NCBI GenBank assembly: GCA_046086645.1 | Contig: JBJSXZ010000072.1 | Span: 1-34,276 of the forward strand | From: Candidatus Limnocylindrus sp. | Lineage (GTDB): Bacteria > Chloroflexota > Limnocylindria > Limnocylindrales > Limnocylindraceae | DNA: 34,276 bases | Direction: 5' to 3' | Shown here: positions 9,823 through 34,276 of the stretch, piece after piece | Layout of the letters: every line of letters starts with the position of its first letter | Numbering within the stretch: the stretch's first letter is position 1 | The notes under the pieces: model-generated | Database searches by the model: none | What the model saw: the letters and a program-made list of their open reading frames with translations, nothing else | What the model was told of the DNA's origin: nothing | Position numbers and translations under genes: made by a program

Positions 9823-9836
9823 ACGTTTACCTTAAG

Positions 9837-10933: not shown

Positions 10934-11620
10934 GCGAGGAGGGCGCAAGACGTATCCGACTCCTCGAATTGTTTCGAGGATTTCTGGATTGGACGGGTCG
11001 CTCTCGATGAGCTCACGAACAGCGTGAATATGCACATCAACCGTACGTGTTTCGCCTGGGTAGTCACTGCCCCAGACGTTCATCAACAGTTGCTCCCTCG
11101 AGAACGCCTGGCCAGGATGCTCAACAAGAAACGCCAGGAGGCGGAACACTTGTGGTTTGACTGGAATCGCGCCGCCGTCTTTCAAGATTTGATGACCGGC
11201 CAAGTCAACGCTGATTCGCCCGATTCGAAGCAGCGTGTTCGTCATATGAGGTTTCTCCAGCCTGCGCAACACAGCGCGGATCCGTGCAGTAAGTTCGCGG
11301 ATACTGAACGGCTTTGTTATGTAGTCGTCGGCTCCGACCTCGAGCCCGAGTATTTTGTCTGCTTCAGAACCTCGAGCCGTCAAAAGTATGATGGGTACAG
11401 AAGATTCTCCGCGAATCAAGCGGCATACCTCTACCCCTGAAATGCCCGGGAGCATTACGTCTAGGACGATCAAGTCTGGTGCATGCTTTCGAAACTCGGC
11501 CAGAGCTGTTGGGCCATCTACCGCCTCACCAAGCGCGTAGCCCTCGTGCTCAAGTGCCTGCAAAACCGACGCGCGAATTATTGGTTCGTCTTCTACAACC
11601 AAGATTCGCTTAGGTGTCAT
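10928..11620 (-). CDS. OmpR/PhoB-family response regulator (RegX3/PhoP-like)
   Basis: Receiver domain ILVVEDEP .. DLIVLDVMLPGISG .. LTAR, and a winged-helix C-terminus TVDVHIHAVRELIE .. IRGVGYVL. Confidence 0.9.
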   Translation of the reverse strand: MTPKRILVVEDEPIIRASVLQALEHEGYALGEAVDGPTALAEFRKHAPDLIVLDVMLPGISGVEVCRLIRGESSVPIILLTARGSEADKILGLEVGADDYITKPFSIRELTARIRAVLRRLEKPHMTNTLLRIGRISVDLAGHQILKDGGAIPVKPQVFRLLAFLVEHPGQAFSREQLLMNVWGSDYPGETRTVDVHIHAVRELIESDPSNPEILETIRGVGYVLRPPRN

Positions 11621-11643
11621 TGATGTTGAGTATAGTCGTATCT

Positions 11644-14579: not shown

Positions 14580-16127
14580 TCATTGCCAACTTTGGATAAG
14601 GAGCATCGCTGCGCCGGCTCCAAGCGGCAGGTTCAGCACGAGGAAGCGATGCCACGCCGATCGAGCATCGCGAACTGGATTGCGACTCACGATTATTTGA
14701 ACGACATTGAGAGCGCTGATAAAAGGAAGGATCGCAGCGATTCGAACAAGGAGATCAACACTTATCACGAGCACCAGAGCGGCGGCACCATAAAGTGCGA
14801 GCGATGCGAAGCCTGCCGCTCGAGCCCCAATCCACGTAGCGGTCGTTGCAATCCCAGATCGCCGGTCGGCAGAAATGTCCTGGATAGCACCGAGGATATG
14901 GTTCGCCATATTCCAGAGAAAAAATGCGAGGAGTGCGGGGAGCCAGCTCCCGTTGAGGGTTACTGCAAACGCAAGGCCAGAGGCGACAGGCAGGAGGAAG
15001 TGCGTTGCAGAGGTAAGTGAATCCACGATCGGGATCGACCGTGTTCTCAGCATCCAGGGGGCGCTGTAGATCGCGGCACTGCCAACGGCCATGAGCGGGA
15101 ACCAGCCGATCGGCGAGGGGAGCACGAGTAGCGCGGCAAGCGCTGGCGCCAGGCCAATCACTAGGAGTAGCCACCGCATTGGCCGCACGTCGCTTCGCAT
15201 GAGCCGTGCCCCTTCGACGCCACCCTTCCGTGGGTTGAGTGCGTCGGTCGCGGTGTCGTAGAGATCGTTAATACCGTAGAGGAAAAAGTTGTATCCAACG
15301 CCCCACCAGAGCGCGAGGGGAATAATCGCGGGACCAATGGCCTCAACGTAGCCTGTTGCGAGTGCGGCGCCGAGAAACGGCAGGATCGTGTTTGTCCACG
15401 CGAGTGGCCTTGATGAGAGAAACAATCGCCACACCTGGTCTTTTGATGCTGCGATGGCTGACAGAGCAAACAACGCAATGGTGCAGAACGAGTATGCATA
15501 GATAAGATCTTCGATCGGAACACTGAGCAGGTAGATATTGAGATTTGTTCTCTCTGGATAAGAGAAATAGCCCGCGGAGCAAAGAACGTTGTCAAACACC
15601 AGGGTGAAGAAGAGGAAGATCGCAATGGTGATCCAGCTCCCTCGAACACGAAAATGATTGAATGCCAAGCCGCTCGCTGCTGCTGCAAGGGCGAGCATAG
15701 ATCTTGTGTATGCAGGGAATGCTCCGGGAGCGGCGATGATGACAGCTGCAGCAGTGAGGCCGAAGAGCAGTGAGCGACGATTCAATCCAGCAGCGCGGTT
15801 TCGAGCGGGCGACTTCACGTACGTGCTGACGGCTGCGGAGAGAACGAGCGAAAACTGCGCGAGGAAGGCGAGGAGAAGCGGCTCTTCGAGTGGCAGGCCG
15901 GTGTCGTACGGCCCTACGCCGGGGAACATTGCACTGCTTAGTGCACGCGGCGTGTAGAACCACCCGCCAGCAATGCCAGCCATGTCTACGAGGAGGAAGA
16001 GCGTGACCATGATGGTGATGAAGGGGTAGGCGTGCGCCCTCGTAGTGGCGAGGCGCAGCCGGCGAGCCAGGGCGTGGGTCCCAACAGCCGACACTGCGAT
16101 TGTTACAAGATAGAGAAACCCGTGCAT
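14580..16127 (-). CDS. fusion protein: two lycopene-cyclase half-domains (CrtYc/Yd or CrtYe/Yf type) + CrtEb/LyeJ-type lycopene elongase (UbiA prenyltransferase)
   Basis: The N-terminal part (about 16127-15443) carries two hPhE(E/D) signatures, LPLEEP and VPIEDL, each in a 3-TM half. The C-terminal part (about 15442-14580) carries SSRPLAWTNT, YGINDLYDTATDALNPRKGGVEGA (NxxxDxxxD) and LGAIQDISADR (DxxxD). ATG 16127 is preferred over the 16226 start, as it follows a G9-AG tract acting as an SD. Confidence 0.75.
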   Translation of the reverse strand: MHGFLYLVTIAVSAVGTHALARRLRLATTRAHAYPFITIMVTLFLLVDMAGIAGGWFYTPRALSSAMFPGVGPYDTGLPLEEPLLLAFLAQFSLVLSAAVSTYVKSPARNRAAGLNRRSLLFGLTAAAVIIAAPGAFPAYTRSMLALAAAASGLAFNHFRVRGSWITIAIFLFFTLVFDNVLCSAGYFSYPERTNLNIYLLSVPIEDLIYAYSFCTIALFALSAIAASKDQVWRLFLSSRPLAWTNTILPFLGAALATGYVEAIGPAIIPLALWWGVGYNFFLYGINDLYDTATDALNPRKGGVEGARLMRSDVRPMRWLLLVIGLAPALAALLVLPSPIGWFPLMAVGSAAIYSAPWMLRTRSIPIVDSLTSATHFLLPVASGLAFAVTLNGSWLPALLAFFLWNMANHILGAIQDISADRRSGIATTATWIGARAAGFASLALYGAAALVLVISVDLLVRIAAILPFISALNVVQIIVSRNPVRDARSAWHRFLVLNLPLGAGAAMLLIQSWQ

Positions 16128-16249
16128 CTCCCCCCCCCGTGCGTACTGCGTGCGCGTCGCTTTCGATGGTACAAGCCGCAACGTCAATTTCGTATCACCA
16201 TATGGCAACATAGACGTGCAGCACATGCTGCCTAAATGAGGGGGAAACT

Positions 16250-16990
16250 ATGGAGCCAGTGCAGGCATATCAGTTGGTCTACAACTTGATGTCGCTCTCT
16301 ATTGCTGCAATGGGCAGCAGCTTCTTCTTCTTCGTCTCAGCGCGTAGCGCGCTGAAGCCGGAGAATCGCATGGCGGTAACGCTTTCAGCAACAGTCGTGC
16401 TGATCGCCCTCTACCACTATGTCCGCATCTTTAACTCGTGGGTAGACACCGCGGGTGGCACACTCGGCACCTTCAATGAAGCGTACCGCTACGTTGACTG
16501 GATCCTCACGGTCCCACTCCTCGTGGCAGAGTTGGTCCTGGTTCTGCGCCTCGACAGCAAGCTCGAGAGCATGTTGATCAAGCGCAACGTTGTCTACGCA
16601 TTCCTCATGATTGCGACAGGCTACATAGGCGAGATGGACGAGCAGACAACTGTCGTCCTCACGTCAGCCCGTACAATTTGGGGATTCATTAGTTCTGTCT
16701 TCTTCGTCTTGATTCTCCGCGACCTCTTCGGCGGTATCGCGGTTTCAATCAAGAAGCAGAGCAAGGAGATCCAGGGGATCTTCCGCATCCTACGTGTCGT
16801 GCTACTCGCGACATGGGGCGTTTATCCGATCGCGTACCTCTTGCCAACCATCACCACAAGCATCGGCCTCTCGGTGGCTGACGGTATGGTGTTGAAGCAG
16901 GTGGGCTACACGATCGCTGACATCTTGGCCAAGCCAGGCTATGGCCTTCTGATCTGGAAGATTGCTACCCTGAAGGACAAGGGCCGCTGA
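16250..16990 (+). CDS. microbial rhodopsin, DTE-motif light-driven proton pump (actinorhodopsin / proteorhodopsin-xanthorhodopsin-like)
   Basis: Product is 246 aa with 7 TM segments. AYRYVDWILTVPLLVAELV gives D83/T87/E94. It also has His56 (LYHY), Leu91 at the PR-105 position, and Schiff-base Lys228 in GYTIADILAKPGYGLLIW. SD GAGGGGG (16238-16244). Confidence 0.9.
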   Translation: MEPVQAYQLVYNLMSLSIAAMGSSFFFFVSARSALKPENRMAVTLSATVVLIALYHYVRIFNSWVDTAGGTLGTFNEAYRYVDWILTVPLLVAELVLVLRLDSKLESMLIKRNVVYAFLMIATGYIGEMDEQTTVVLTSARTIWGFISSVFFVLILRDLFGGIAVSIKKQSKEIQGIFRILRVVLLATWGVYPIAYLLPTITTSIGLSVADGMVLKQVGYTIADILAKPGYGLLIWKIATLKDKGR

Positions 16991-17257: not shown

Positions 17258-18250
17258 ATGAACGTTAAAGACTGGACACGTGTTTTCGATGACAACTCCT
17301 TGACGATTGGTCGTACGCCGCTAGTCAAGCTGCATCGCGTTACCGATAACGCAACCGCAACAGTTTTCGCAAAGATTGAGGGCCGGAACCCCGCCTACTC
17401 GGTGAAGTGTCGCCTTGGCACTGCAATGGTGCTCGATGCTGAGAAGCGCGGCGTCCTTAAACCCGGCAAAGAGATTGTGGAGCCAACGAGTGGCAACACG
17501 GGCATTGCCTTGGCGATGGTGGGGGCAGCCCGTGGCTACAAGGTGACGCTCACGATGCCTGAGACGATGAGCATTGAGCGACGAAAGCTGCTAGTTGCCT
17601 ATGGCGCAACGCTCGTCCTCACCGAGGGTGCAAAGGGCATGTCTGGTGCGATTGCGAAGGCAGAGGAGATTGCTGCCTCCGATCCCGATCGCTATGTACT
17701 GCTGCAACAGTTCAAGAACCCCGCTGGACCGGCAATTCATGAGTCGACGACGGGACCAGAGATCTGGGACGACACCGAGGGGAACGTCGACATTTTCGTT
17801 TCTGGCGTTGGCACTGGCGGTACGATTACCGGCGTTGCTCGCTACCTTAAGAACGGCCGCAAGAAGAACGTGCATGTTGTGGCAGTTGAGCCAGCAACGA
17901 GCCCTGTCATTGCGCAGCGCCTCGCGGGTCAGCCGAACCAGCCTGCACCGCACAAGATCCAGGGGATCGGCGCAGGCTTTGTGCCCGACATTCTTGACCT
18001 CTCACTCGTCGACCAGGTGGAGCCAGTGACGAATGAAGAGGCGATCGCCATGGCGCGTCGCATTGCCCGCGAAGAGGGAATTCTCGTTGGCATCTCGTGC
18101 GGTGCAGCTGCGCATGTGGCGATCAAGCTTGCACATCTTCCCGAGAATGCGGGCAAGACAATCGTGGTTATATTGCCAGACTCAGGTGAGCGATATCTCA
18201 GCACTGCGCTCTTTGAGGGAATGTTTGGGCCAGACGGTCTGCCGCTATGA
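17258..18250 (+). CDS. cysK: cysteine synthase A (O-acetylserine sulfhydrylase)
   Basis: [14 protein letters not shown] (PLP lysine), [11 protein letters not shown] and [10 protein letters not shown]. Confidence 0.92.
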
Positions 18251-19131
18251 GCAAGGAGATCGCAGCAGCACTGCTTGCCGCTGATGCGGCGGTGGCAAGC
18301 GCAGCGGTGGTGGCCGAAGACCGCCCCTCGCGGGGGGAGATCTCCCGCGTGATGGGCGAGCTGCGTGCTGCACTCTTCCCGCGCGAGTTAGGGCTTGCCG
18401 CGCGAGGGGAGGCGGCCGTTGCCTCCCATCTCCAGGAGGCACTCGACGGGCTCAATGAGCAGATCAGGCGTTGCGCTGTGCTCTTCGCGGCGGAGCGGCC
18501 AGGCAGGGGCGCCGCGCTTCCAGCGGACGCTGCAGCGATCGCAGGGGAGCTCGCAAGGGCACTTCCTGAAATCCGAAGGAAGCTCGAAGGCGATATCAGC
18601 GCCGCATTTGATGGGGATCCCGCTGCACAGAGTCGCTCAGAGATCCTGCACGGGTATCCGGGTGTTCGTGCGATCACCGACCACCGCATAGCGCACGTGC
18701 TCTATCAATTGGGCGTGCCACTACTCCCGCGCATTGCTGCGGAGTCGGCACACTCGGCCACGGGCATTGACATTCACCCCGGTGCAACGATTGGCGAGCG
18801 GTTCTTCGTTGACCACGGAACAGGGGTTGTTATCGGCGAAACGGCAATCATCGGCAGCGATGTACGTCTCTATCAAGGTGTAACGCTCGGGTCGAAGAGC
18901 TTCCCACACGCAGATGACGGCACCCTTGCAAAAGGAAGGCCACGCCACCCGATCATTGAAGACCGCGTCGTTATCTATTCTGGTGCGACGGTGCTCGGCA
19001 GGATCACCGTTGGTCACAACTCAACGATAGGCGGCAATGTGTGGCTGACGCGGAGCATTCCGCCGTATAGCAACATCTCGCAAGCACGAACGCGGGCCGA
19101 AGATCTTGTAGGCGAAGGACTCGGCATTTAA
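18247..19131 (+). CDS. cysE: serine O-acetyltransferase (long N-terminal form)
   Basis: [23 protein letters not shown] followed by hexapeptide repeats [35 protein letters not shown] overlap with cysK. Confidence 0.88.
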
Positions 19132-20208: not shown

Positions 20209-22074
20209 ATGAGCGGAGGAATGGGGCCCGGCCGCGGGGGGCATATGTTCGGCGGCGATGCCGCTGGGCCAACGAAGCCTACCGGCGCAGCACTCCCACT
20301 CCTCCGCCGAGCGGCTCGGTTTTTTCGTCCCTACCAGGCGCGCCTTGCCATCATTGGCGGCGCAATCGTCGTTTCGAGCATCCTTGGCCTAGCGAACCCC
20401 TACCTCCTCAAGCTGCTCATCGATGAAGCGATACCTAAGAAAGACATCGGACTTCTTGCGCTCTACGCGGGGCTCATGGTGCTCGTCCCCGTGATCAACG
20501 GAGGTATTGGTCTTGCTCAATCGTGGCTCACCGCGTCGGTTGGCCAGTTCGTGATGCGCGATTTACGCAACCTCCTCTTCACGCACGTGCAGTCGATGCC
20601 GATCCGCTTCTTCTCTGAGACGCGTACCGGAGAAATTCAGAGCAGGCTAACCAATGATGTCTCCGGGGTTCAGTCGGTGGTGAGCGACGCCGCGGCAAAC
20701 CTAGCTTCGAGCATCGCCATCGTCGTTTCAACCCTTGTGGCAATGACTCTCATTGATTGGCGATTGACGGCGGTAAGCCTCTGCGTTGCGCCACTCTTTC
20801 TCTACCTAACGTCGAAAGCTTCTGCCGCGCGGCGAAAGGCGAGCGCAGAGGTGCAGGGTGCGCTCGCGGACTTGACCTCAATCGCGGAGGAGCACCTCTC
20901 GGTGGGCGGGGCACTCCTGGCGAAGTCGTTCGGCAGGTCAGAGGCGGGTGCCGAGCATTTCACGAAGCGCTCAAGTGAACTCGCCACCCTGCAGTTGCGG
21001 CAGGCGCTCACGGGCCGTTGGGTCGGCGTTGTGGTGCAGGTCGTGTTCAGCGGGATTCCAGCACTTGTCTACTTCGCCGCCGGCTCCCTTGCTGCGACGG
21101 GCGCCTCGGATGCACCAACGGTCGGAGACATCGTTGCGTTCACGACCCTGCAGAGTCGCCTCTTCTTCCCACTTGCATCACTGCTCGGGCTGCAGGTTGA
21201 AATCGGGGGGAGCCTCGCACTCTTCGAGCGGATCTTCGCCTACCTTGATCTAGTTCCCGAAATTGTGGACGCTCCGAATGCCGTCGGCCTACGCCGAGTC
21301 GACGTACGTGGCAAGGTTTCATTCAACGACGTCGCGTTTCGCTACCCAGAACCTCCGCGTGCAAAGGGTGCACCGAAGCGCGATACGTTTGGACTCGCCG
21401 GCATTGCGTTCACCGTGCAGCCAGGAACGCTGACCGCACTTGTCGGACCATCCGGGTCTGGAAAGAGCACGATCCTCAGCCTGATCCCGCGTTTCTGGGA
21501 TGTGCAGAGCGGAAGCGTGCAACTCGACGGCCTTGACGTTCGTTCGATCAAACTGCGATCGCTCGGCGAGATGATCGGCGTCGTCACACAAGAGACGCAT
21601 CTGCTGCACGCAAGCATCGCCGATAACCTTCGCTACGCGCGCCCCGACGCTAGCGACTATGAGATGTGGGCGGCCCTTGACGGCGCATCACTCGCGAGTC
21701 GCGTTCGCGAACTGCCGAGCGGGCTCGATACGATCGTTGGCGAGCGCGGCTACAAGCTTTCGGGCGGAGAGCGCCAGCGCCTCGCGATCGCTCGCGTCCT
21801 GCTGAAAGATCCACCGATACTCTTACTCGACGAGGCAACCTCAGCCCTTGACTCGGTCTCAGAACGCCACGTGCAAGCGGCGCTTGAGCGCGCAATGCAA
21901 GGCCGCACAACGATTGCGGTTGCGCACCGGCTGAGCACCGTCGCCTCAGCCGACGAGATCCTCGTCTTGGATCATGGGGTGATTGTTGAGCGCGGCACCC
22001 ATGAGCAGCTTCGTTTGGCTGGACGCCTTTACGCTGAGCTCGCAGCGGTGCAATTCGGAGCGGTAGCGCCTTAA
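20209..22074 (+). CDS. ABC exporter, fused permease/ATPase (MsbA/MdlB-type)
   Basis: Six-TM N-terminal domain, Walker A GPSGSGKST, signature LSGGERQRLAIAR and Walker B LLLDEATSALD. Confidence 0.88.
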   Translation: MSGGMGPGRGGHMFGGDAAGPTKPTGAALPLLRRAARFFRPYQARLAIIGGAIVVSSILGLANPYLLKLLIDEAIPKKDIGLLALYAGLMVLVPVINGGIGLAQSWLTASVGQFVMRDLRNLLFTHVQSMPIRFFSETRTGEIQSRLTNDVSGVQSVVSDAAANLASSIAIVVSTLVAMTLIDWRLTAVSLCVAPLFLYLTSKASAARRKASAEVQGALADLTSIAEEHLSVGGALLAKSFGRSEAGAEHFTKRSSELATLQLRQALTGRWVGVVVQVVFSGIPALVYFAAGSLAATGASDAPTVGDIVAFTTLQSRLFFPLASLLGLQVEIGGSLALFERIFAYLDLVPEIVDAPNAVGLRRVDVRGKVSFNDVAFRYPEPPRAKGAPKRDTFGLAGIAFTVQPGTLTALVGPSGSGKSTILSLIPRFWDVQSGSVQLDGLDVRSIKLRSLGEMIGVVTQETHLLHASIADNLRYARPDASDYEMWAALDGASLASRVRELPSGLDTIVGERGYKLSGGERQRLAIARVLLKDPPILLLDEATSALDSVSERHVQAALERAMQGRTTIAVAHRLSTVASADEILVLDHGVIVERGTHEQLRLAGRLYAELAAVQFGAVAP

Positions 22075-23279
22075 CGAGGTTTTTGCTTGCGAATCTTCTT
22101 TCGGGCGGTCTGAATCGTATAAATACCGCGCCGCAGCAGGGCACCTATTTGGAAACGGAAAAGCAACAGGTTGATTGAGAATCCTGGCATTTGCTCTTTT
22201 GGTTGCAACATCCCAGAAGTTATCATCGTTGCAATGACCATATTTGCTGCGCTAGTTACCTTCTCCTTTTGCTGGTCCAGCTCAGCTCTGGAAGCGTCAG
22301 TGTTTTCTGTGTTTACAGGCTCCGAGAAGAGGGTAAGGTCTCCGATAATACGGACGCCGCTCTCGCGCAAGCCTCTTTCAATTTCTAGGCTTACGCGCTC
22401 AACCTCCTTTGCAGATTCCTCTGGGATGCGAGTTCGCTCCGAGGTAGTTTCTTGTAGGTGATTCACAAAACCGTCAAATGTTCGCCACACGAGCTTCTTG
22501 TAGTTGGTTTGCGTTCCGCCAAGCTCAGCGTACTTCTGGTTTATCTTGAGCAGCACTTCAGCTTCGAACTTTGATAGTGAGGGATTCGTCTTTGGCGGGA
22601 GTATCGTCATCTTTGCAGGGTCTACTCCTAGGATCGACGAGAAAGAATCTACAACGAACGGCCTGTTCCGCTCGTCAGCGACAATCACGGTCACGCGATC
22701 CGGACCTAAGGCATCCGCCCACCGCATCGCTATCTCGTCATATCGATGCTTTAGCCAAAAACGAGCTTTTAAATCGTGCGCCGCATTGCCACGCGGATAA
22801 TCGTCATTCAAGAGCTTCGCCAAAAAGTGAGAAAAGCTACTGCGGTATCCAAACTTCAGTCTCTGTTGCCAGGCAGATGGAAGTGTTTTGGCAATCGGCC
22901 GCACCACAAGTACAGCGTGCATCCGATCCCGCCCAAGATCTCGGACGATTCGTTGCACCGGTTCTGCCGGCGCACTCGCGTACCACTCGCTGCTGATTAA
23001 AGCAAGGCGTTCGGTTGTAGCACCTACCTCTTTCGTGAGGGCCTCCCAATGTGAGATTGGTGGAACTACGCCGGCAATCCTCTGCTTTACTCCCGATACA
23101 GCTTTTGCTGGTGTGGCCCAATGCGTGCGGTTGCCGACGTAGTGCACACCGGCTTTCTCCAGTTCTGCACGGTTCGCATTCCACAGCGCCTGGAGCGTCG
23201 TTGATCCGCACTTTGGCGCGCCGATATGGATAATCCGATCAAATGGGGGGACCGTGCGCGGTAGAGGTTGCTCTGGCAT
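22071..23279 (-). CDS. sulfotransferase-like protein, paralogue 1 (uncharacterised ~400-aa family)
   Basis: IHIGAPKCGSTTLQ is a PKxG(S/T)T PAPS 5'-phosphosulfate loop, and VVRPIAKTLPSAWQQ is 3'-phosphate-loop-like. It is colinear with the 30812-32023 product. ATG 23279 is preferred: TACTCT lies 6 nt upstream, whereas the GTG 23309 start has an SD only 1 nt away. Confidence 0.6.
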   Translation of the reverse strand: MPEQPLPRTVPPFDRIIHIGAPKCGSTTLQALWNANRAELEKAGVHYVGNRTHWATPAKAVSGVKQRIAGVVPPISHWEALTKEVGATTERLALISSEWYASAPAEPVQRIVRDLGRDRMHAVLVVRPIAKTLPSAWQQRLKFGYRSSFSHFLAKLLNDDYPRGNAAHDLKARFWLKHRYDEIAMRWADALGPDRVTVIVADERNRPFVVDSFSSILGVDPAKMTILPPKTNPSLSKFEAEVLLKINQKYAELGGTQTNYKKLVWRTFDGFVNHLQETTSERTRIPEESAKEVERVSLEIERGLRESGVRIIGDLTLFSEPVNTENTDASRAELDQQKEKVTSAANMVIATMITSGMLQPKEQMPGFSINLLLFRFQIGALLRRGIYTIQTARKKIRKQKPR

Positions 23280-23378
23280 GCGGTAAGAGTAGCCGATCCC
23301 ACCACGCACGCCTCCTCGTGCATTTGCGCGGCATGCGACGATCCGTCAGAGTAATACGAGCCAAAAAGGGGAGGGCAC

Positions 23379-29260: not shown

Positions 29261-30142
29261 TCAGCGGCGCTTCCTTGATCTAGTTGGCGTCTCACTGCGG
29301 AGCGTACGGTACGTCCAGCCTATGGCTGTTACCCAGAGGGCGATGATGACGACGTAGGCACCGAGGAACACCTCGCCAGATGCCCCAACTGCTGCAAGCA
29401 GGACGCGCGCGTTGGTGAAGCAGATAAACCCACCTACCGTCACCCCCAGCAGGCGTGGATTGAGATGGCGAACAAGATAGGCGGCAATCGGCGCTGCAAT
29501 GAGGCCGCCTGCTAGCAGTGCCAACACAAACTCAATGCGTACCCCTTCGCCGCCGAGCGATGTGAAAAACCCGAGGCTTGCTGAAATTGCAACGATGAAC
29601 TCACTGGCGCTGACCGTGCCGATCACGCGGTTAGGTGCGAGCCGCCCGTCGGCAAGCAGTGTCGGCGTTGTCGTGGGTCCCCAACCTCCACCACCCGTAG
29701 CATCGATAAATCCGCCGATGAGTCCGAGCGGGGCGAGGAACTTGAGGCCAGGGAGGCCGGCTCGCTGCACACGCGCTCGGACGAAGAGGAAGCGTGCAAG
29801 CACGTAGAGCCCAAGGATAAAGAGAATGGTGCTTGCCATTGGCTTTGCCGCTTCGGTAGAGATCGATGAGAGAAGTGTTGCACCAGAAAACGCGCCGATC
29901 CCACCAGGGATCGCAATGCGCCGAACGACCGACCAGTCCACATTGCCAAAACGATGATGGGAGATTCCCGAGAGGGCAGTTGTCCCGACCTCGGCAAGGT
30001 GCACCGACGCAGATGCCATAGCCGGCGTCAACCCCGCAAAGATCAGCAGGGTAGATGAGGTGAGCCCGTAGCCCATCCCGAGTGACCCGTCGACGAATTG
30101 AGCTGCCAGACCGGCAATCGCCACCACGATCAAGGTTTGCAT
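29261..30142 (-). CDS. TauE/SafE (TSUP) family anion permease
   Basis: FVDGSLGMGYGLTSSTLL .. FIDATGGGGWGPTTTPTL is the duplicated TSUP pattern. SD GGGAGG. Confidence 0.85.
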   Translation of the reverse strand: MQTLIVVAIAGLAAQFVDGSLGMGYGLTSSTLLIFAGLTPAMASASVHLAEVGTTALSGISHHRFGNVDWSVVRRIAIPGGIGAFSGATLLSSISTEAAKPMASTILFILGLYVLARFLFVRARVQRAGLPGLKFLAPLGLIGGFIDATGGGGWGPTTTPTLLADGRLAPNRVIGTVSASEFIVAISASLGFFTSLGGEGVRIEFVLALLAGGLIAAPIAAYLVRHLNPRLLGVTVGGFICFTNARVLLAAVGASGEVFLGAYVVIIALWVTAIGWTYRTLRSETPTRSRKRR

Positions 30143-30158
30143 GCTGCCTCCCTACCTT

Positions 30159-30191
30159 GTGAGTATTAACTACATAATATAGTGAGAATAC
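30159..30191. promoter_or_regulatory. AT-rich repeat cluster upstream of tauE (candidate promoter/operator)
   Basis: GTGAGTATTA (30159-30168) and GTGAGAATAC (30182-30191) are direct repeats. They flank TATTA-N6-TAATA (30164-30179). A minus-strand TATATT lies at 30181-30176. Confidence 0.3.
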
Positions 30192-30318
30192 AGACTAAGG
30201 TTGATGGCGTCAACGAAGCGTCCGGACATTGCCATTGGAGCGCCGATCAGGGAGTTTAGGGTTTGCAGGACTTTTTCAAGGGCATGGCGTCAGCGCGATG
30301 CGGGGGTCTTGGGGGGCG

Positions 30319-30768
30319 CTAGCGCCACGCGCTCGGGTTGTCGAGGAGGCGCTTGATTCGGGCTGGGAAGCGTTGGGCAACAGCATCGGCAATCGAGACC
30401 CCCTCGAGGATCTCGCGCTCGGCCGCACGAATGGCGATAAGCACCTCGCGGAGCCCCTTTGCCGCCCCCTTGTAGTTGAGCTGCTCTGGCCGTGTTCCGG
30501 CGACGTTCGTGAGTGTGCCGTCTACCGCGCGAATGACATCGGCTAGGGTGATGAGTTTCGGGCTCTTTGCAAGCGCCCAACCCCCCTCAACGCCACGTCG
30601 GGCGGTCACGATCCCTGCGCGACGCAGTTGTGCGAGCACGGCTCCAAGATACGAGGCGGGAATCCCCTGGCTCTTGCCGAGGGCAATCGTGGTGAGGGGT
30701 TCGTCCCCGGCAACCGCAAGTTCCATGACGGCTCGCAGTGCATAGTCGGTCCGACTTGTAAGGCGCAT
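30319..30768 (-). CDS. Rrf2-family transcriptional regulator without Fe-S cysteines (CymR-like)
   Basis: MRLTSRTDYALRAVMELA .. IPASYLGAVLAQLRRAGIV is an Rrf2 wHTH. There is no Cys in the 149-aa product. ATG 30768 has TATGCT 6 nt upstream. Confidence 0.88.
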   Translation of the reverse strand: MRLTSRTDYALRAVMELAVAGDEPLTTIALGKSQGIPASYLGAVLAQLRRAGIVTARRGVEGGWALAKSPKLITLADVIRAVDGTLTNVAGTRPEQLNYKGAAKGLREVLIAIRAAEREILEGVSIADAVAQRFPARIKRLLDNPSAWR

Positions 30769-30811
30769 GCATGCAGCATACTGGTACACAATAGAACCAG
30801 GAGGAGCAGTT

Positions 30812-32023
30812 GTGAGCGATAGTGCGAAGCGCAGGGAAATCAATCCAATTCCAGCACCTGGCGTACTCCTTCATATTGGACCTCCAAAAACCGGTACGAC
30901 TGCGCTGCAGCAGACGTGCCATACGCTCCGTGCCGCCATGCTCGAGCAAGGAGTTCGGTATGCGGGTGATGAACAACAACCTTCGACTGCTGTGTTCGCC
31001 GTGACTGGGCGAACACATCCGAGTACGGGGAAGGTTCCGTCGCTTCGCCATTGGACCCAGTTGCGAGACGAGGTTGTGAACGCGAAAGAGCAGCGGGTTC
31101 TGGTAAGCAGCGAGTTCTTTGCTGGCGCAACGAGCGAACAGGCCACTAGGATAATCCGTGAACTCGGTGGAGACCGCGTACGGGTTCTCATCACACTCCG
31201 ACCGCTGGCAAAGATTCTTGCTTCGCGGTGGCAGCAGAATGTGCAAGAAGGTTCAGTTCCCACCTATTCCGACTGGCTCACCGCCGTGTTGAACGATCGT
31301 GGAAGTGAGCTCAGCCAGAAATTCTGGTCGCGACAACAGCACGCAGAACTCGTGAGCCGCTGGGCGCGCGTGGCTGGCCCAGATCGCGTCACTGTCCTTG
31401 TCGTTGACGACGCGCATCGCAACGCTCTCTTGCGCGATGTTGAGCAGTTGCTCGCGCTTCGATCAGAGACACTTCAATTATCTTCTGTTGACTCGCTCAA
31501 CCGCTCACTGACCGCTCCAGAAGTTGAAGCAATCCGCATGTTCAATGTTGCATTCAAAGCAGCGAACCTTTCGAAAGCGCTCCGGTATAAGCTCATGTCT
31601 CGTGGCGGGGCGCAGCTCTTGAAGACCCGAACTCCAGAGCCGAGCGAGGCGCGAATTCTCACCCCTGCATGGGCCGATACTGCAGCACAAAACATTGCCC
31701 AAGAGATGATTACCGAGATTGCGGCGACCGGCGTACGGATCATCGGCGACCTCTCTCTGCTCGGGAGGGGGCTCGATCCATCCGCAATTGGTGAGATAGA
31801 TGACGCAGGGTTAAAGGTCGCGCCAGAGACTGCAGCATCACTTGCCATGGGCGTGCTGATCGCCACGGGTGCAGGGCGTGGATATGAGCGTGGTTCGAGG
31901 CTGCCAGCTTGGACAGAGCCGGAGGAGTTAAAGCGTGTTCCCACGCGCAACCTCGTGCGCGTAGTGCTGCAACGGCAGGTTCAAGGCCTGCTCCTTCGCG
32001 TGCGCAGCCTAATTCGACGCTAG
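30812..32023 (+). CDS. sulfotransferase-like protein, paralogue 2 (uncharacterised ~400-aa family)
   Basis: LHIGPPKTGTTALQ is a PAPS 5'-PSB loop and ITLRPLAKILASRWQQ is 3'-PB-like. GTG 30812 lies 7 nt after AGGAGG (30799-30804). The ATG 30767 start would overlap the rrf2 start. Confidence 0.65.
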   Translation: MSDSAKRREINPIPAPGVLLHIGPPKTGTTALQQTCHTLRAAMLEQGVRYAGDEQQPSTAVFAVTGRTHPSTGKVPSLRHWTQLRDEVVNAKEQRVLVSSEFFAGATSEQATRIIRELGGDRVRVLITLRPLAKILASRWQQNVQEGSVPTYSDWLTAVLNDRGSELSQKFWSRQQHAELVSRWARVAGPDRVTVLVVDDAHRNALLRDVEQLLALRSETLQLSSVDSLNRSLTAPEVEAIRMFNVAFKAANLSKALRYKLMSRGGAQLLKTRTPEPSEARILTPAWADTAAQNIAQEMITEIAATGVRIIGDLSLLGRGLDPSAIGEIDDAGLKVAPETAASLAMGVLIATGAGRGYERGSRLPAWTEPEELKRVPTRNLVRVVLQRQVQGLLLRVRSLIRR

Positions 32024-33279
32024 GAGCTGAGGAGCGCCTTCACCTGGTCGACAGCCGATTCGATGCTCACCAGAGAAGCGTCGATCACCAGGTCGGCGTC
32101 TGCAGGAATCTCATAGGGCGACGAGATGCCGGTGAATTCGGCGATCTCCCCGGCGCGCGCCTTTGCGTAAAGGCCTTTTCGGTCGCGAGCCTCGCAGATC
32201 TCAAGCGGCGTGCTTACGTAGATCAGGTAGAACGGGGCGACGCCAGCAGCGAGCGCGCGTGCCGCTTCGCGACTCTCAGCAAATGGCGCAATCGGTGCGG
32301 CGATTGCAATTCCTCCGCCCCGCGCGACCTCTACTGCAGCTTCGGCAATGCGCGTCACGTTGGTATTGCGCGCGGCACGGTCAAAGCCAAGACCGAGCGA
32401 GACCCGCCTGCGCATTGCGTCGCCGTCAAGAAGGTGGACATTGGCTGCGCCGTCATCGCGCAATGATTCAGCGAGCGAGCGAGCGATTGTTGACTTTCCC
32501 GAACCAGAGAGTCCAGTAAAGAAGACAACTGCCGGTTGACTCCACGTACCAGACGCTGCTGCTTCAACTTCGCGTGTTGATGCGAGAGTCAGCTCGCTTG
32601 CGCTGCGCACAGCTCCAACTGGCGCTCCCACAACGAACTGCGTCGACTTCTGCGCACCATACGCAGCAAGTGCGCGGAGAAGCCGCGCATCATCGTTGAG
32701 CGGTGCGCCTGGTTGCGCATGTGGCCACGGGAGGATGAGGAGCTCGACTCTTGCACTCGGGAGGTGTTGGCGAAGTTCGTCTGAAGCAGCGATTAGGCTG
32801 CGCGTTAATCCTGCGGCGCCAACCTCCCCCATGTGCGCAGCCTTCCGCGATACGAGCCCGACGATGATGATGCGCGATACCCTCGGCGCCGCACTCTCCG
32901 CCGCGCGGACGATCGCTTCGATTTCGGCGGTACTTGGCGGAAGCACAGCCACAAATGCGATATCGAACGGGGCCGTGTCGGTGGCTGCCGCATGGCGAAG
33001 TGCGGGATCCCACTGTGGGCCGAGCCCACGGGCGAGCGGCTTTAATGGAGTGAGCCCTACGCTACCCGTTGACGAAACGCTGATCTCAGCCAGCGGGGTG
33101 TTCTCCTCATCGCTGAAGGTGCACCGCCGTGCTCCCTGAGGGGCGAGATCGAGAACGTCTGCAGGCTCTGCCGCCCCGCTCAACACGAGTTCCAGGCGGT
33201 CGAGTCCTGCCTCGTCCAGGATGACCGCGCTCGTGCCTCCGTTGCCAGTGCTGCCCGCCAGCGTTTGATCAGATCGCAT
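32020..33279 (-). CDS. cysC: adenylylsulfate (APS) kinase with ~215-aa N-terminal ATP-sulfurylase-like, apparently degenerate, domain
   Basis: C-terminal half: VVFFTGLSGSGKSTIA .. LDGDAMRR .. FTGISSPYE. N-terminal half: LELVLSGAAEP, IIIVGLVSRK and VELLILPWP, but no HxxH. Confidence 0.85.
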   Translation of the reverse strand: MRSDQTLAGSTGNGGTSAVILDEAGLDRLELVLSGAAEPADVLDLAPQGARRCTFSDEENTPLAEISVSSTGSVGLTPLKPLARGLGPQWDPALRHAAATDTAPFDIAFVAVLPPSTAEIEAIVRAAESAAPRVSRIIIVGLVSRKAAHMGEVGAAGLTRSLIAASDELRQHLPSARVELLILPWPHAQPGAPLNDDARLLRALAAYGAQKSTQFVVGAPVGAVRSASELTLASTREVEAAASGTWSQPAVVFFTGLSGSGKSTIARSLAESLRDDGAANVHLLDGDAMRRRVSLGLGFDRAARNTNVTRIAEAAVEVARGGGIAIAAPIAPFAESREAARALAAGVAPFYLIYVSTPLEICEARDRKGLYAKARAGEIAEFTGISSPYEIPADADLVIDASLVSIESAVDQVKALLSS

Positions 33280-33285
33280 AGTGGG

Positions 33286-33302
33286 AGATTACCCCCTAAT
33301 CT
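33286..33302. promoter_or_regulatory. inverted repeat AGATTA-CCCCC-TAATCT = two back-to-back TANNNT -10 candidates
   Basis: The minus-strand TAATCT (33291-33286) lies 6 nt from the cysC ATG at 33279. The plus-strand TAATCT (33297-33302) lies 7 nt from the cysQ ATG at 33310. Confidence 0.4.
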
Positions 33303-33309
33303 GCTCACC

Positions 33310-34158
33310 ATGACATCAGAGAGGAATCCGGACCACGATGATGCGCAGCTCGCCATCCGCATTGCGGAGGCGGCCGCAGCGTCGCTCAGGGGTTTGCGCG
33401 ATACGGCTCCGGTTCACCCTGCAACGTTTGACGCAGCTGCTCTCCGCGCCGCAGGCGACGCAGAGACGAACATGTTGATCGAGAGCATGTTGAGGAGCGA
33501 GCGGCCTACCGACACAATTCTCTCCGAGGAGTCAGCAGATTCCGAACAGCGGCTCTCGGCAGAGCGGGTCTGGATCATCGATCCACTTGATGGGACACGT
33601 GAATATGGCGAGCGCGACGAGCGGGGGGTCTGGCGAGATGATTTCGCCGTCCATGTTGCACTCTGGGAGCGAGGCCGCGGGCTGACCGTCGGGGCCGTGT
33701 CGTTGCCAGCACGAAACATCACATACACCACTGCAAACCCACTGCCGCTTCCACGCGAATCGAGTGGCACACTGCGTGTTGCGGCGAGTCGTACCCGACC
33801 ACCAGAATTCTTAGCGCGCTTGCGCGACGCTGGACGCATAATCCTTGTGCCGATGGGCTCGGCCGGCGTGAAGGCGATGTCGGTACTCGACGGGAGCGCC
33901 GACGCCTACATCCACGCTGGTGGCCAGTACCAGTGGGATTCAGCGGCCCCCGTCGCGGTCGCCTGCGCCGCGGGCGCTGTGGCAACCCGGCTTAACGGCG
34001 AGCCGATCGTCTATAACGGCGCAGAGTTGCTCGTGCCCGATCTTGTCGTCGTCCACCCCTCCCGTGCGGCAGAGGTGCGTGCCCTTCTCGTTGAGGCTGC
34101 CGACGAGAACGGTGGCGCAGGTGTATCTGCCGCGACTGGTGCAGAATCTCCTGCATGA
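33310..34158 (+). CDS. cysQ: 3'(2'),5'-bisphosphate nucleotidase (PAP phosphatase) CysQ, inositol monophosphatase family
   Basis: LSEES .. VWIIDPLDGTREY .. WDSAAP. ATG 33310 avoids overlap with the cysC start. Confidence 0.85.
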   Translation: MTSERNPDHDDAQLAIRIAEAAAASLRGLRDTAPVHPATFDAAALRAAGDAETNMLIESMLRSERPTDTILSEESADSEQRLSAERVWIIDPLDGTREYGERDERGVWRDDFAVHVALWERGRGLTVGAVSLPARNITYTTANPLPLPRESSGTLRVAASRTRPPEFLARLRDAGRIILVPMGSAGVKAMSVLDGSADAYIHAGGQYQWDSAAPVAVACAAGAVATRLNGEPIVYNGAELLVPDLVVVHPSRAAEVRALLVEAADENGGAGVSAATGAESPA

Positions 34159-34171
34159 GGATCCACAACGC

Positions 34172-34276
34172 ATGACGAAAAGCCACGTGATTAGCCAGCT
34201 CACCGCCCTCGAGGCGGAGAGCATCCATATCTTCCGCGAGGTTGCGGCAGAGATGGAGCGCCCCTGCCTCCTCTTT
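34172..34276 (+). CDS. cysD: sulfate adenylyltransferase subunit 2 (CysD), 3'-truncated by window end
   Basis: MTKSHVISQLTALEAESIHIFREVAAEMERPCLLF matches the conserved CysD N-terminus (LEAESIHI.REV). Confidence 0.85.
   Translation, partial: MTKSHVISQLTALEAESIHIFREVAAEMERPCLLF

What the first reader, a model, noticed from the sequence alone, without database searches (positions are those of the whole stretch)
30319..34276. Dedicated PAPS-dependent sulfation cassette around an unplaced ~400-aa sulfotransferase family, with its own Rrf2 regulator
30812-32023 encodes 403 aa with an N-terminal LHIGPPKTGTTALQ loop (the PKxGTT 5'-phosphosulfate-binding loop of PAPS sulfotransferases) and ITLRPLAKILASRWQQ (3'-phosphate-loop-like).

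It is surrounded by the genes needed to make and clear the cosubstrate:
- APS kinase (32020-33279), which overlaps its stop codon in a CTAG;
- PAP phosphatase cysQ (33310-34158);
- cysD (from 34172);
- a TauE/SafE anion permease;
- a Cys-free Rrf2 regulator transcribed divergently, with only 43 bp between the start codons.

In mycobacteria sulfate assimilation runs through APS reductase, so PAPS is made only for sulfated metabolites. If the same holds here, this is a sulfation module whose acceptor is unknown.

The roughly 250 aa after the PAPS-binding core end in a hydrophobic stretch (AMGVLIATGAG) and an Arg-rich tail. I recognise no motif there. The tail suggests membrane association and a lipid-like acceptor.
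Basis: partly seen in the sequence, partly recalled or inferred. Interest (0 to 1): 0.75.

Follow-up and report, generated by a model that had tools for sequence, protein, structure and literature searches.

The report
Unannotated sulfotransferase family with PAPS-supply genes
A freshwater Chloroflexota (Limnocylindria-type) bacterium carries a compact gene set that most likely takes up sulfate, converts it to the donor PAPS and passes the sulfate group to an unknown target, probably a cell-surface sugar polymer, through a large enzyme family that no database names.

Summary

- **The enzyme.** The 403-aa protein (30812-32023) matches no Pfam, NCBIfam or PDB sequence model. Its AlphaFold model (pLDDT 89) finds sulfotransferases first: 3rnl, heparan-sulfate 3-OST-1, TPST1 and NDST1. 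K26, E101, R130 and S138 are conserved even in a 23%-identical cyanobacterial relative.
- **The family.** It is large: 12,826 representative clusters at E<=1e-3. RefSeq calls its members "hypothetical protein".
- **The cassette.** In 52 of 59 Chloroflexota-labelled species loci the gene lies tail-to-tail with a two-domain APS kinase. In 45 of them cysD and cysN follow; cysQ and a TauE permease are present in most.
- **The acceptor.** In Actinobacteria the family sits in teichoic-acid-type clusters, and it occurs fused to a TarS-like glycosyltransferase. Distant relatives lie in exopolysaccharide clusters.
- **Untested.** Whether the cassette is dedicated to sulfation could not be tested, because the genome's cysH type is out of reach.
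A second family member lies at 22071-23309.

Verdict: a new sequence family and cassette variant of a known kind, of moderate interest.

The parts
30812..32023 (+). 403-aa member of an unannotated sulfotransferase-fold family. Proposed PAPS-dependent sulfotransferase: K26 in the 5'-phosphosulfate loop, E101 as candidate catalytic base, R130 and S138 as the 3'-phosphate motif, an N230-R231-S232 motif, and a basic C-terminal helix.
   Evidence: There is no Pfam, NCBIfam or PDB sequence hit. The AF2 model has pLDDT 89. Its top Foldseek hits are sulfotransferases: 3rnl at 3.4e-5 and 3uan at 1e-4. The listed residues are invariant or nearly so in the family and are kept in a remote homologue. Family members give sub-threshold Sulfotransfer_4, _1 and _3 hits.
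32020..33279 (-). Two-domain APS kinase (CysC). Residues ~1-245 form a degenerate ATP-sulfurylase-like domain and residues 248-400 the APS kinase. The gene is convergent with the sulfotransferase gene, and the two stop codons overlap in CTAG.
   Evidence: Pfam and TIGR00455 score above their cutoffs. The N-terminal domain has no Pfam hit. The top Foldseek hits of the full-length model are two-domain ATPS/APSK proteins: 1m8p, 3cr8 and 2gks. The CTAG overlap is seen. The convergent arrangement holds in 53 of 53 loci that carry cysC.
33310..34158 (+). CysQ-type 3'-phosphoadenosine-5'-phosphate (PAP) phosphatase. It removes the sulfotransferase by-product.
   Evidence: Pfam Inositol_P scores 2.3e-30. 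The best PDB sequence match is entry 5djf, a PAP phosphatase, at 1e-53. TIGR01331 scores below its cutoff. The gene is conserved next to cysD-cysN in the related loci.
34172..34276 (+). 5' end of cysD (sulfate adenylyltransferase subunit 2), cut by the window end. Close relatives continue with full cysD and cysN.
   Evidence: NCBIfam CysD scores 2e-8 on the 35 aa present. L002 and L003 carry cysD (301 aa) and cysN (430 aa) at this position.
30319..30768 (-). Cys-free Rrf2-family regulator, divergent from the sulfotransferase gene. Candidate sulfur-status regulator of the cassette.
   Evidence: Pfam Rrf2 scores 4.6e-31. The CymR, IscR and NsrR models all score below their cutoffs. The translation contains no Cys. 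An Rrf2 homologue lies next to the gene in 8 of the 76 genome-scan loci, plus L002 and L003.
30769..30811 (.). 43-bp divergent intergenic region. It contains a box, CA(G/T)CATACT, conserved just upstream of the Rrf2 start codon, an imperfect palindrome across that start codon, and the Shine-Dalgarno sequence of the sulfotransferase gene.
   Evidence: The sequence is shown, the palindrome 30758-30781, and the box in relatives with 70-96% identical Rrf2. Its function (a -10 element or an operator) is inferred only.
29261..30142 (-). TauE/TSUP-family permease, proposed sulfate importer for the cassette.
   Evidence: Pfam TauE scores 2.7e-38. The gene is present in nearly all cassette loci. C. glutamicum CysZ, a DUF81-family protein, behaves as the high-affinity sulfate transporter (PMC1266029). 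That DUF81 is the former name of Pfam TauE is my own knowledge.
22071..23309 (-). Second, divergent member of the same family: 412 aa with HIGAPKCGST, SSE and VVRPIAKTLPSAWQQ, and NPS in place of NRS.
   Evidence: BLASTP against the first copy gives 31% identity, E 2e-51. Pfam Sulfotransfer_1 scores a sub-threshold E 0.011. In L008 the related gene lies directly downstream of TauE.

Best explanation
The locus is a self-contained module that activates sulfate and transfers it to an acceptor.

1. A TauE/TSUP permease imports sulfate (inferred).
2. CysD and CysN make APS. Only the cysD start is in the window; both genes are complete in relatives.
3. A two-domain CysC phosphorylates APS to PAPS.
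4. The 403-aa protein is a cytoplasmic, PAPS-dependent sulfotransferase of a previously unannotated family.
   - K26 in the PKTGTT loop would bind the 5'-phosphosulfate.
   - R130 and S138 would bind the 3'-phosphate.
   - The invariant E101 at the end of the SSE strand is the likely catalytic base, as Glu is in heparan-sulfate sulfotransferases (my own knowledge).
5. CysQ hydrolyses the inhibitory product PAP.
6. The Cys-free Rrf2 protein probably ties expression to sulfur status.

The most likely acceptor is a cell-envelope glycopolymer, such as a wall-teichoic-acid-like or secondary wall polysaccharide. It would be modified on the cytoplasmic face of the membrane before export. The basic C-terminal helix would hold the enzyme at the membrane or on the polyanion.

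- **Shown:** fold, motifs, family size and gene linkage.
- **Inferred:** PAPS use, the role of each residue, the acceptor class, the direction of transport and the regulation.
For: **Fold**
- The AF2 model has pLDDT 89 and pTM 0.84.
- The six best-ranked Foldseek PDB hits are sulfotransferases, and other P-loop proteins start at rank 7. They are 3rnl (3.4e-5), 3-OST-1 (3uan, 1e-4, 315 columns, TM 0.60 on the target), TPST1, NDST1 and an Anopheles cytosolic sulfotransferase.

**Motifs**
- HIGP[PH]KTGT, SSE, TLR-x7-S-x-WQQ and NRS are invariant or nearly so in 53 homologues.
- K, E, R-x7-S and N-x-S persist in a Gloeothece homologue at 23% identity (hhalign probability 97%, E 3e-11).
- Family members give sub-threshold Pfam hits to sulfotransferase families: Sulfotransfer_4 in 7 of 53, Sulfotransfer_1 in 3 and Sulfotransfer_3 in 1.

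**Linkage**
- 52 of 59 Chloroflexota-labelled species loci have cysC within 10 kb. It is always convergent, with a median gap of about 100 bp. In 45 loci cysD and cysN are also present. TauE is in nearly all.
- CysQ is closest to the PAP phosphatase of PDB entry 5djf.

**Acceptor**
- P0191 fuses the family domain to Glycos_transf_2 plus TarS_linker.
- TarS-like glycosyltransferase genes are interleaved with the paralogues in L006, L019, L025, L032 and L058.
- In Streptomyces (L084, L079, L066) and in L083 the gene sits among IspD-SDR, Glyphos_transf (TagF-like), TarS-like and pyruvyl-transferase genes.
- Distant plasmid homologues lie in exopolysaccharide clusters, once fused inside a 1267-aa glycosyltransferase and once beside two annotated sulfotransferases.

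**Tail**
- There is no transmembrane helix. The last 30 residues carry a median net charge of +7 across the family.
Against: - No biochemical datum exists for any member.
- No sequence model of a known sulfotransferase family reaches its threshold.
- Foldseek TM-scores are moderate, 0.56-0.60 on the target.
- The window itself holds no glycosyltransferase or teichoic-acid gene next to the cassette. The acceptor inference therefore rests on relatives that are 40-46% identical or more distant, and these may have different acceptors.
- cysK and cysE lie 12 kb upstream. A preprint reports cysIJ/sir sulfite reductases as particularly common in this lineage (10.1101/2021.08.23.457424). The activation genes may therefore also feed assimilation.
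Confidence: 0.7

Rival explanations
1. The cassette is chiefly the organism's assimilatory sulfate-activation locus. Sulfate would go to APS and PAPS, then to sulfite through a PAPS-type CysH encoded elsewhere. The Rrf2 protein would act as a CymR-like cysteine regulator, and the sulfotransferase-like gene would be a minor side consumer. This would not exclude a sulfotransferase role. It concerns how dedicated the module is.
For: - cysK and cysE are in the same window.
- A preprint reports cysIJ/sir sulfite reductases as particularly common in this lineage (10.1101/2021.08.23.457424).
- A DUF81-family permease is the assimilatory sulfate transporter in C. glutamicum (PMC1266029).
- The Rrf2 protein lacks cluster-binding Cys, as CymR does, and gives a weak CymR hit (61 bits).
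Against: - No cysH or cysI lies within 10 kb in any of about 85 held loci.
- cysC is glued tail-to-tail to the sulfotransferase gene in 53 of 53 loci that have it.
- Multiple tandem paralogues, up to 5, accompany cysC.
- The same TauE-cysC / cysQ-cysD-cysN module sits inside a wall-polysaccharide cluster in Myceligenerans. In Actinobacteria CysH is typically the APS type (established for M. tuberculosis; the sequence motifs point the same way in C. glutamicum, PMC1266029).
Confidence: 0.25
2. The enzyme is a sulfotransferase, but its acceptor in this organism is a membrane lipid, glycolipid, carotenoid or other small metabolite, rather than a wall glycopolymer.
For: - The enzyme has a basic amphipathic C-terminal helix and a small-residue hydrophobic helix.
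- The window cassette has no adjacent glycosyltransferase.
- Carotenoid and rhodopsin genes are in the window.
- The mycobacterial Stf enzymes give a precedent for sulfated lipids (my own knowledge).
Against: - No lipid-biosynthesis gene is linked in any locus.
- The recurrent partners and fusions are TarS-like glycosyltransferases, TagF-like polymerases, CDP-alditol synthesis genes, pyruvyl transferases and exopolysaccharide genes.
- The nearest structures are polysaccharide and protein sulfotransferases.
Confidence: 0.22
3. The protein is not a sulfotransferase. It would be another P-loop-like enzyme, such as a kinase or nucleotide-binding scaffold, that merely travels with the cys genes.
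For: - From rank 7, Foldseek hits are mainly SRP GTPases and small kinases.
- No curated sulfotransferase model reaches its threshold.
Against: - The loop is PKTGTT, with K before the G. This is the sulfotransferase 5'-PSB form, not the Walker A motif GxxxxGK[ST].
- The R-x7-S motif sits at a strand-to-helix junction as it does in sulfotransferases.
- The best-ranked Foldseek hits are sulfotransferases.
- All recurrent sub-threshold Pfam hits except bact-PGI_C (5 of 53 members) are to sulfotransferase families.
- The linkage to the PAPS-making and PAP-clearing genes is near-obligate.
Confidence: 0.06

Closest known systems
Heparan-sulfate sulfotransferases (3-OST-1, PDB 3uan; NDST1 sulfotransferase domain, 8cd0) and the Alicyclobacillus sulfotransferase 3rnl
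   Same: - These are the best structural matches.
- They share a PKxGT-type 5'-phosphosulfate loop and an Arg...Ser 3'-phosphate motif.
- An acidic residue sits where a catalytic base is expected. That Glu is the base in heparan-sulfate sulfotransferases is my own knowledge.
- Their acceptors are polysaccharides.
   Different: - Identity is only 15-17%, and there is no Pfam Sulfotransfer_1 hit for the window protein.
- The window protein is about 150 residues longer, with inserted helices and a basic C-terminal helix of about 70 residues.
- It is a cytoplasmic bacterial enzyme.
Bacterial modules that pair PAPS supply with a sulfotransferase: rhizobial NodPQ + NodH, Xanthomonas RaxPQ + RaxST, and M. 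tuberculosis CysDNC + CysQ + Stf0-3
   Same: - The logic is the same: dedicated or shared sulfate activation and a PAP phosphatase feeding a PAPS-dependent sulfotransferase.
- CysQ here is closest to the PAP phosphatase of PDB entry 5djf.
- The branch at APS in M. tuberculosis is described in the abstract of PMC4373884.
   Different: - The sulfotransferase belongs to a different, unannotated sequence family.
- CysC is separate from CysN and carries a degenerate ATP-sulfurylase-like domain.
- The permease, the phosphatase and, in one subclade, the regulator are all in one tight cassette conserved across a whole class.
Wall-teichoic-acid tailoring by TarS (S. aureus), and sulfated exopolysaccharide clusters of cyanobacteria (synechan; cited in PMC13390465)
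   Same: - Members are fused to, or neighbour, TarS-like GT2 enzymes, TagF-like polymerases and CDP-alditol synthesis genes.
- A cyanobacterial relative lies in an exopolysaccharide cluster with annotated sulfotransferases.
- This suggests cytoplasmic tailoring of a polymer before export.
   Different: - My literature searches found no report of a sulfated teichoic acid or wall polymer made by this family.
- The window's own cassette has no glycosyltransferase or polymerase gene beside it.
Two-domain APS kinase of Thiobacillus denitrificans (PDB 3cr8)
   Same: It is an APS kinase with an N-terminal ATP-sulfurylase-like domain, and it is among the top Foldseek hits. That the domain lacks sulfurylase activity there is my own knowledge.
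   Different: The N-terminal domain here is shorter (about 245 aa), matches no Pfam model and evolves fast. Related copies were found only in about 390-430-aa CysC proteins of Chloroflexota-type metagenome contigs and of Myceligenerans.
CymR (Bacillus and Staphylococcus Rrf2-family cysteine regulator)
   Same: Both are Rrf2-fold regulators. The window protein has no Cys to bind a cluster and lies next to sulfur-metabolism genes. That CymR also lacks cluster-binding Cys is my own knowledge.
   Different: It scores 61 bits against the CymR model cutoff of 195. IscR, SufR, NsrR and RirA models match it about equally weakly. No operator or partner is known.

Membership tests
PAPS-dependent sulfotransferase superfamily | Sulfotransferase alpha/beta fold | tested here: met
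   The AF2 model has pLDDT 89. The six best-ranked Foldseek PDB hits are all sulfotransferases: 3rnl, 3uan, 5wrj, 8cd0 and 7r0o.
PAPS-dependent sulfotransferase superfamily | 5'-phosphosulfate-binding loop (PKxGTT type) after the first strand | tested here: met
   HIGPPKTGTT follows strand 17-22. K26, T27, G28 and T29 are at least 90% conserved and are kept in a 23%-identical homologue.
PAPS-dependent sulfotransferase superfamily | 3'-phosphate-binding Arg...Ser motif at a strand-to-helix junction | tested here: met
   T128, L129 and R130 end strand 123-129, and S138 lies in helix 132-145. R130 and S138 are invariant.
PAPS-dependent sulfotransferase superfamily | Catalytic base (His or Glu) positioned next to the sulfuryl group | tested here: inconclusive
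   E101 is invariant at the end of strand 95-100 and is kept in remote homologues. Its 3D position relative to a PAPS pocket could not be inspected.
PAPS-dependent sulfotransferase superfamily | Binds PAPS and transfers sulfate | not testable with these tools
   This needs biochemistry. The near-obligate linkage to cysC, cysQ and cysDN is indirect support.
Pfam Sulfotransfer_1 / _3 / _4 and the NCBIfam sulfotransferase models | Score at or above the curated gathering threshold | tested here: not met
   The window protein has no hit even at E<=10. Relatives reach at most 20.9 bits against the Sulfotransfer_4 cutoff of 22.8.
Mycobacterial Stf0 family | Sequence match to the Stf0 family model | tested here: not met
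   No such Pfam hit appears for the window protein or for any of 53 family members at E<=1. That Stf0 has its own Pfam model is my own knowledge.
APS kinase (CysC) | Match to the APS kinase models above their cutoffs | tested here: met
   PF01583 scores 180 bits (cutoff 21.1) and TIGR00455 scores 167.1 bits (cutoff 138.7). Foldseek aligns the APS kinase domain at rmsd about 2.6 A.
CysQ PAP phosphatase | Match to the CysQ equivalog model or to a characterised CysQ | tested here: inconclusive
   TIGR01331 scores 89.9 bits against a cutoff of 228.8, so the equivalog model is not met. The full-length match to the PAP phosphatase of PDB entry 5djf scores 1e-53. The protein is therefore close to that characterised type.
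CymR | NCBIfam equivalog score | tested here: not met
   The protein scores 61.2 bits against a cutoff of 195. Only the Rrf2 superfamily model (TIGR00738) is met.
TauE/TSUP permease | Pfam PF01925 above threshold | tested here: met
   The protein scores 132 bits against a cutoff of 32.6. The substrate, sulfate, is inferred from C. glutamicum CysZ.

The most novel reading that the evidence does not exclude
The family marks a widespread and so far unrecognised pathway. Monoderm bacteria (Limnocylindria and other Chloroflexota, Streptomyces and other Actinobacteria) would sulfate teichoic-acid-like or secondary wall glycopolymers in the cytoplasm before export.

In phosphorus-poor fresh water, sulfate esters could supply wall negative charge in place of phosphate. 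This would be a cell-wall counterpart of sulfolipid-for-phospholipid substitution.

Two hints are compatible with a link to phosphate status, but neither tests it:
- The cassette is ubiquitous in an abundant freshwater class.
- A phoD gene lies directly upstream of the Streptomyces orthologues.
Probability: 0.2. Interest if true: 0.8.

Novelty: new variant of a known kind. Interest (0 to 1): 0.55.

Why it matters
Sulfated cell-surface polymers are regarded as uncommon in bacteria outside cyanobacteria (PMC13390465). Here a family gives 12,826 matches at E<=1e-3 (1,607 at E<=1e-30) among 50%-identity cluster representatives, and it matches no model in Pfam or NCBIfam.

- It is tied to a complete PAPS supply-and-clearance cassette across an abundant freshwater and soil class.
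- In cultured Streptomyces it is tied to teichoic-acid-type machinery.

If the prediction holds, three things follow:
- It would add a new sulfotransferase family to annotation pipelines.
- It would explain why these genomes keep cysC and cysQ.
- It would make wall-polymer sulfation testable in tractable actinomycetes.

It also matters for reading sulfur budgets from metagenomes. In these lineages cysC and cysDN should not automatically be scored as assimilatory sulfate reduction.

Tried and rejected
- **Sequence searches against known families.** Pfam, NCBIfam and PDB searches, by single sequence and by profile, gave nothing above threshold.
- **hhalign against an annotated sulfotransferase.** Comparing the family profile with a single annotated Gloeothece sulfotransferase fragment was uninformative.
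- **cysH type.** tblastn with E. coli CysH and CysI against all held loci found only CysD cross-hits. Literature searches on Limnocylindria sulfur genes gave only general statements.
- **Unbiased neighbour clustering.** Clustering of stop-to-stop ORFs in 76 loci collapsed, because long antisense ORFs in GC-rich DNA merged the clusters. Pfam scans of the next-largest clusters showed no further conserved partner.
- **ABC exporter link.** I considered a link between the second paralogue and the adjacent ABC exporter and rejected it. The exporter and PEPCK genes are adjacent, without the paralogue, in L013 and L034.
- **Transmembrane anchor.** I considered and rejected one. The maximum hydropathy is 1.32.
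- **Promoter and terminator scan.** It gave no more sites than the shuffled controls.
- **Myceligenerans locus.** It carries the same PAPS module, but neither tblastn nor an HMM search found a member of this family there.

Full report
**1. The observation**

- The candidate gene runs 30812-32023 (+). It starts at GTG, with AGGAGGA 8 nt upstream.
- It ends in a CTAG shared with the stop codon of the convergent gene 32020-33279 (-).
- That convergent gene is an APS kinase. Pfam APS_kinase scores 3.7e-53 and TIGR00455 scores above its cutoff.
- cysQ runs 33310-34158 (+). Pfam Inositol_P scores 2.3e-30. The best PDB sequence match is entry 5djf, a 3'-phosphoadenosine 5'-phosphate phosphatase, at 1e-53.
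- The first 35 codons of cysD start at 34172.
- Upstream lies a Cys-free Rrf2 gene, 30319-30768 (-). Its start codon is 43 bp from that of the candidate.
- Further upstream is a TauE-family permease, 29261-30142 (-).
- The window's other genes and the named homologues place the organism in the freshwater Chloroflexota class Limnocylindria. Those genes include a rhodopsin, pst-phoU-phoBR and cysK-cysE.

**2. What the 403-aa protein is**

Sequence methods find nothing: no Pfam, NCBIfam or PDB hit, even with a 53-sequence profile.

An AlphaFold model built on that alignment is confident, with pLDDT 89 and pTM 0.84.
- Foldseek against the PDB returns sulfotransferases first: 3rnl (E 3.4e-5), heparan-sulfate 3-OST-1 (1e-4, 315 aligned columns, TM 0.60 on the target), TPST1, NDST1 and a cytosolic SULT.
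- Generic P-loop GTPases and kinases come only after these.

The secondary-structure order matches the sulfotransferase plan.
- Strand 17-22 leads into the PKTGTT loop, which carries K26.
- Strand 95-100 ends in the invariant S99, S100 and E101.
- Strand 123-129 ends in T128, L129 and R130.
- S138 lies in the following helix.

These residues, together with N230 and S232, survive in a Gloeothece homologue of only 23% identity (hhalign probability 97%, E 3e-11).

Several family members give sub-threshold hits to Pfam Sulfotransfer_4, _1 and _3, and the window's second copy gives Sulfotransfer_1 at E 0.011. Only one non-sulfotransferase family recurs among these weak hits: bact-PGI_C, in 5 of 53 members.

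The loop is not a Walker A motif, because K precedes the G.

I therefore accept the sulfotransferase assignment at the superfamily level. Membership of any curated family was tested and not met.

**3. The C-terminal region**

The true extension is about residues 330-403.
- It consists of a small-residue helix (AASLAMGVLIATGAG), a low-confidence linker and a long basic helix.
- No window of 19 residues reaches transmembrane hydropathy; the maximum is 1.32.
- The last 30 residues carry a median net charge of +7 across the family.
- This fits peripheral binding to an anionic membrane surface or to a polyanionic substrate.
- Longer relatives repeat this module.

**4. Size and status of the family**

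- A profile search of 1.84 billion representative proteins gives 12,826 hits at E<=1e-3 and 1,607 at E<=1e-30. These include tandem double-domain proteins of about 800 aa.
- The single scan of GTDB species genomes found at least 533 encoding loci. Most are Limnocylindria or other Chloroflexota MAGs. Others are Streptomyces, Aeromicrobium, Nocardioidaceae, Frankiales, Mycobacteriales and Binatia.
- RefSeq names the Streptomyces proteins 'hypothetical protein'. One UniRef entry carries the name 'Sulfotransferase family protein'.
- Five literature searches found no characterised member.

**5. Gene linkage**

The counts below are for 59 Chloroflexota-labelled species loci with enough flank.
- 52 have cysC within 10 kb.
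- In all 53 genome-scan loci that carry cysC (these 52 plus the Binatia locus L074) it is convergent with the family gene. The median gap is about 100 bp.
- 45 also have cysD and cysN.
- A TauE permease is present in nearly all. It lies upstream, with Rrf2, in the Limnocylindrus subclade, and between cysC and cysQ elsewhere.
- Gene calls with precomputed Pfam hits confirm the same order in L001, L002, L003, L004 and L006.
- 37 of 61 loci carry two to five tandem paralogues.

The window has a second copy, 31% identical, at 22071-23309 (-). Its counterpart in L008 lies directly downstream of TauE.

This linkage to the enzymes that make PAPS and remove PAP is the strongest functional evidence after the fold.

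**6. The acceptor**

None of the 12 actinobacterial loci has cys genes nearby. Their contexts point to cell-envelope glycopolymers instead.
- In Streptomyces sp. NBC_01373 (L084) the gene lies among several wall-polymer genes. They are an IspD-SDR fusion (CDP-alditol synthesis), two TagF-like Glyphos_transf genes, two TarS-like GT2 genes and a polysaccharide pyruvyl transferase.
- L079, L066 and L072 are similar.
- A metagenomic contig (L083) carries a double-domain member. It also carries a 981-aa fusion of the family domain with Glycos_transf_2 and TarS_linker, next to IspD-SDR and Glyphos_transf genes.
- In Chloroflexota, TarS-like genes are interleaved with the paralogues in L006, L019, L025, L032 and L058.
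- Distant plasmid-borne relatives sit in exopolysaccharide clusters of Tritonibacter and Gloeothece. The Gloeothece copy lies beside two annotated sulfotransferases. In Qingshengfaniella the domain lies inside a 1267-aa glycosyltransferase.
- The same TauE-cysC / cysQ-cysD-cysN module, without this family, is embedded in a wall-polysaccharide cluster of Myceligenerans.

I infer a cell-envelope glycopolymer as acceptor. It would be modified in the cytoplasm, where PAPS is, before export. For the window organism itself this remains an extrapolation.

**7. Other parts of the cassette**

- **CysC N-terminal domain.** The 245 residues have no Pfam hit. They occur only in about 390-430-aa CysC proteins of Chloroflexota-type metagenome contigs and of Myceligenerans.
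  - The full-length model (pLDDT 81) matches two-domain ATP-sulfurylase/APS-kinase proteins best. One of them is the T. denitrificans APS kinase, whose sulfurylase-like domain is inactive (my own knowledge).
  - Sulfurylase activity here is presumably left to CysDN.
- **TauE.** It is most simply a sulfate importer. The DUF81-family CysZ of C. glutamicum behaves as the high-affinity sulfate transporter (PMC1266029).
- **Rrf2.** It meets only the superfamily model; CymR, IscR and NsrR are all below their cutoffs. A short box, CA(G/T)CATACT, just upstream of its start codon is conserved among relatives. An imperfect palindrome spans the start codon. What these elements do is not known.

**8. What remains open**

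- Whether PAPS here serves only sulfation could not be tested.
  - No cysH or sulfite reductase gene lies in any held locus.
  - A preprint reports cysIJ/sir sulfite reductases as particularly common in this lineage.
  - An older study found the sulfate-activation genes (PAPS synthase and sulfate adenylyltransferase) absent from most freshwater Chloroflexi MAGs (PMC6169038).
  - A PAPS-type CysH would make cysC dual-use, but it would not remove the sulfotransferase inference.
- PAPS binding, the catalytic role of E101, the acceptor and the regulation are all inferences.

**9. Comparison and verdict**

- The logic, PAPS supply plus a sulfotransferase plus a PAP phosphatase, is that of NodPQ/NodH, RaxPQ/RaxST and the mycobacterial CysDNC/CysQ/Stf systems.
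- The fold is closest to polysaccharide sulfotransferases.
- Three things are new:
  - a very large sequence family that no curated model covers;
  - a tight, class-wide cassette that includes a two-domain CysC;
  - a recurring tie to teichoic-acid-type and TarS-like enzymes, which hints at sulfated wall polymers.
- I rate it a new variant of a known kind, with interest 0.55. Cultured Streptomyces orthologues make it testable.

Noticed in passing
window 22071-23309 (-): This is a second, divergent member of the same sulfotransferase-like family: 412 aa, 31% identical, with HIGAPKCGST, SSE and RP...S.WQQ, and NPS in place of NRS. In the window and its closest relatives it is inserted between an ABC exporter and PEPCK. 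In L008 the related gene lies directly downstream of TauE.
   Followed up: partly
window 32545-33279 (-), N-terminal 245 aa of CysC: This is a fast-evolving domain with no Pfam hit. The full-length model best matches two-domain ATP-sulfurylase/APS-kinase proteins (1m8p, 3cr8, 2gks). It looks like a degenerate, probably non-catalytic sulfurylase-like domain. Homologues were found only in about 390-430-aa CysC proteins of Chloroflexota-type metagenome contigs and of Myceligenerans.
   Followed up: partly
L089 (Myceligenerans crystallogenes, BAAANL010000003.1), 5686-11269 and flanks: The same TauE-cysC(two-domain) / cysQ-cysD-cysN module is embedded in a wall-polysaccharide cluster. The cluster has several GT2 genes, a pyruvyl transferase, an ABC-2 exporter, a GT8 and an Acyl_transf_3+SGNH gene. 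No member of this sulfotransferase family is present. Large unassigned N-terminal regions of the 630-aa and 909-aa proteins might hide another sulfotransferase.
   Followed up: partly
L084 8348-9898 and L079 8171-9853 (Streptomyces): A PhoD-type alkaline phosphatase gene lies directly upstream of the family gene in two Streptomyces genomes. The assignment comes from Pfam in L084; in L079 it is my reading of the ORF translation. The window itself carries pstSCAB-phoU-phoBR at 6424-12831. A link between wall sulfation and phosphate limitation is possible but untested.
   Followed up: no
window 33280-33309: The start codons of cysC and cysQ are divergent and only 30 bp apart. This is a second very tight divergent pair in the cassette, so promoters must overlap coding sequence or the mRNAs must be leaderless.
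   Followed up: no
window 30769-30790 and relatives L002, L007-L010, L014, L034: A box, CA(G/T)CATACT, is conserved immediately upstream of the Rrf2 start codon. On the Rrf2 strand it reads AGTATG(C/A)TG about 6 nt before the ATG. It could be a -10 element for a leaderless mRNA, or an operator half-site.
   Followed up: partly
window 14580-16990: A microbial rhodopsin gene (16250-16990) lies next to a lycopene-cyclase/UbiA fusion gene (14580-16226). This fits a light-harvesting freshwater Chloroflexota lifestyle.
   Followed up: no
window 17258-19131: A cysK-cysE pair (cysteine synthase and serine acetyltransferase) lies 12 kb upstream of the cassette. It is relevant to whether the Rrf2 protein works like CymR together with CysK.
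   Followed up: no
L002 9119-9511 and L003 4603-4995: In the 83%-identical relatives an F420H2-dependent quinone reductase gene sits between TauE and Rrf2. In the window only a 176-bp spacer (30143-30318) is there.
   Followed up: no
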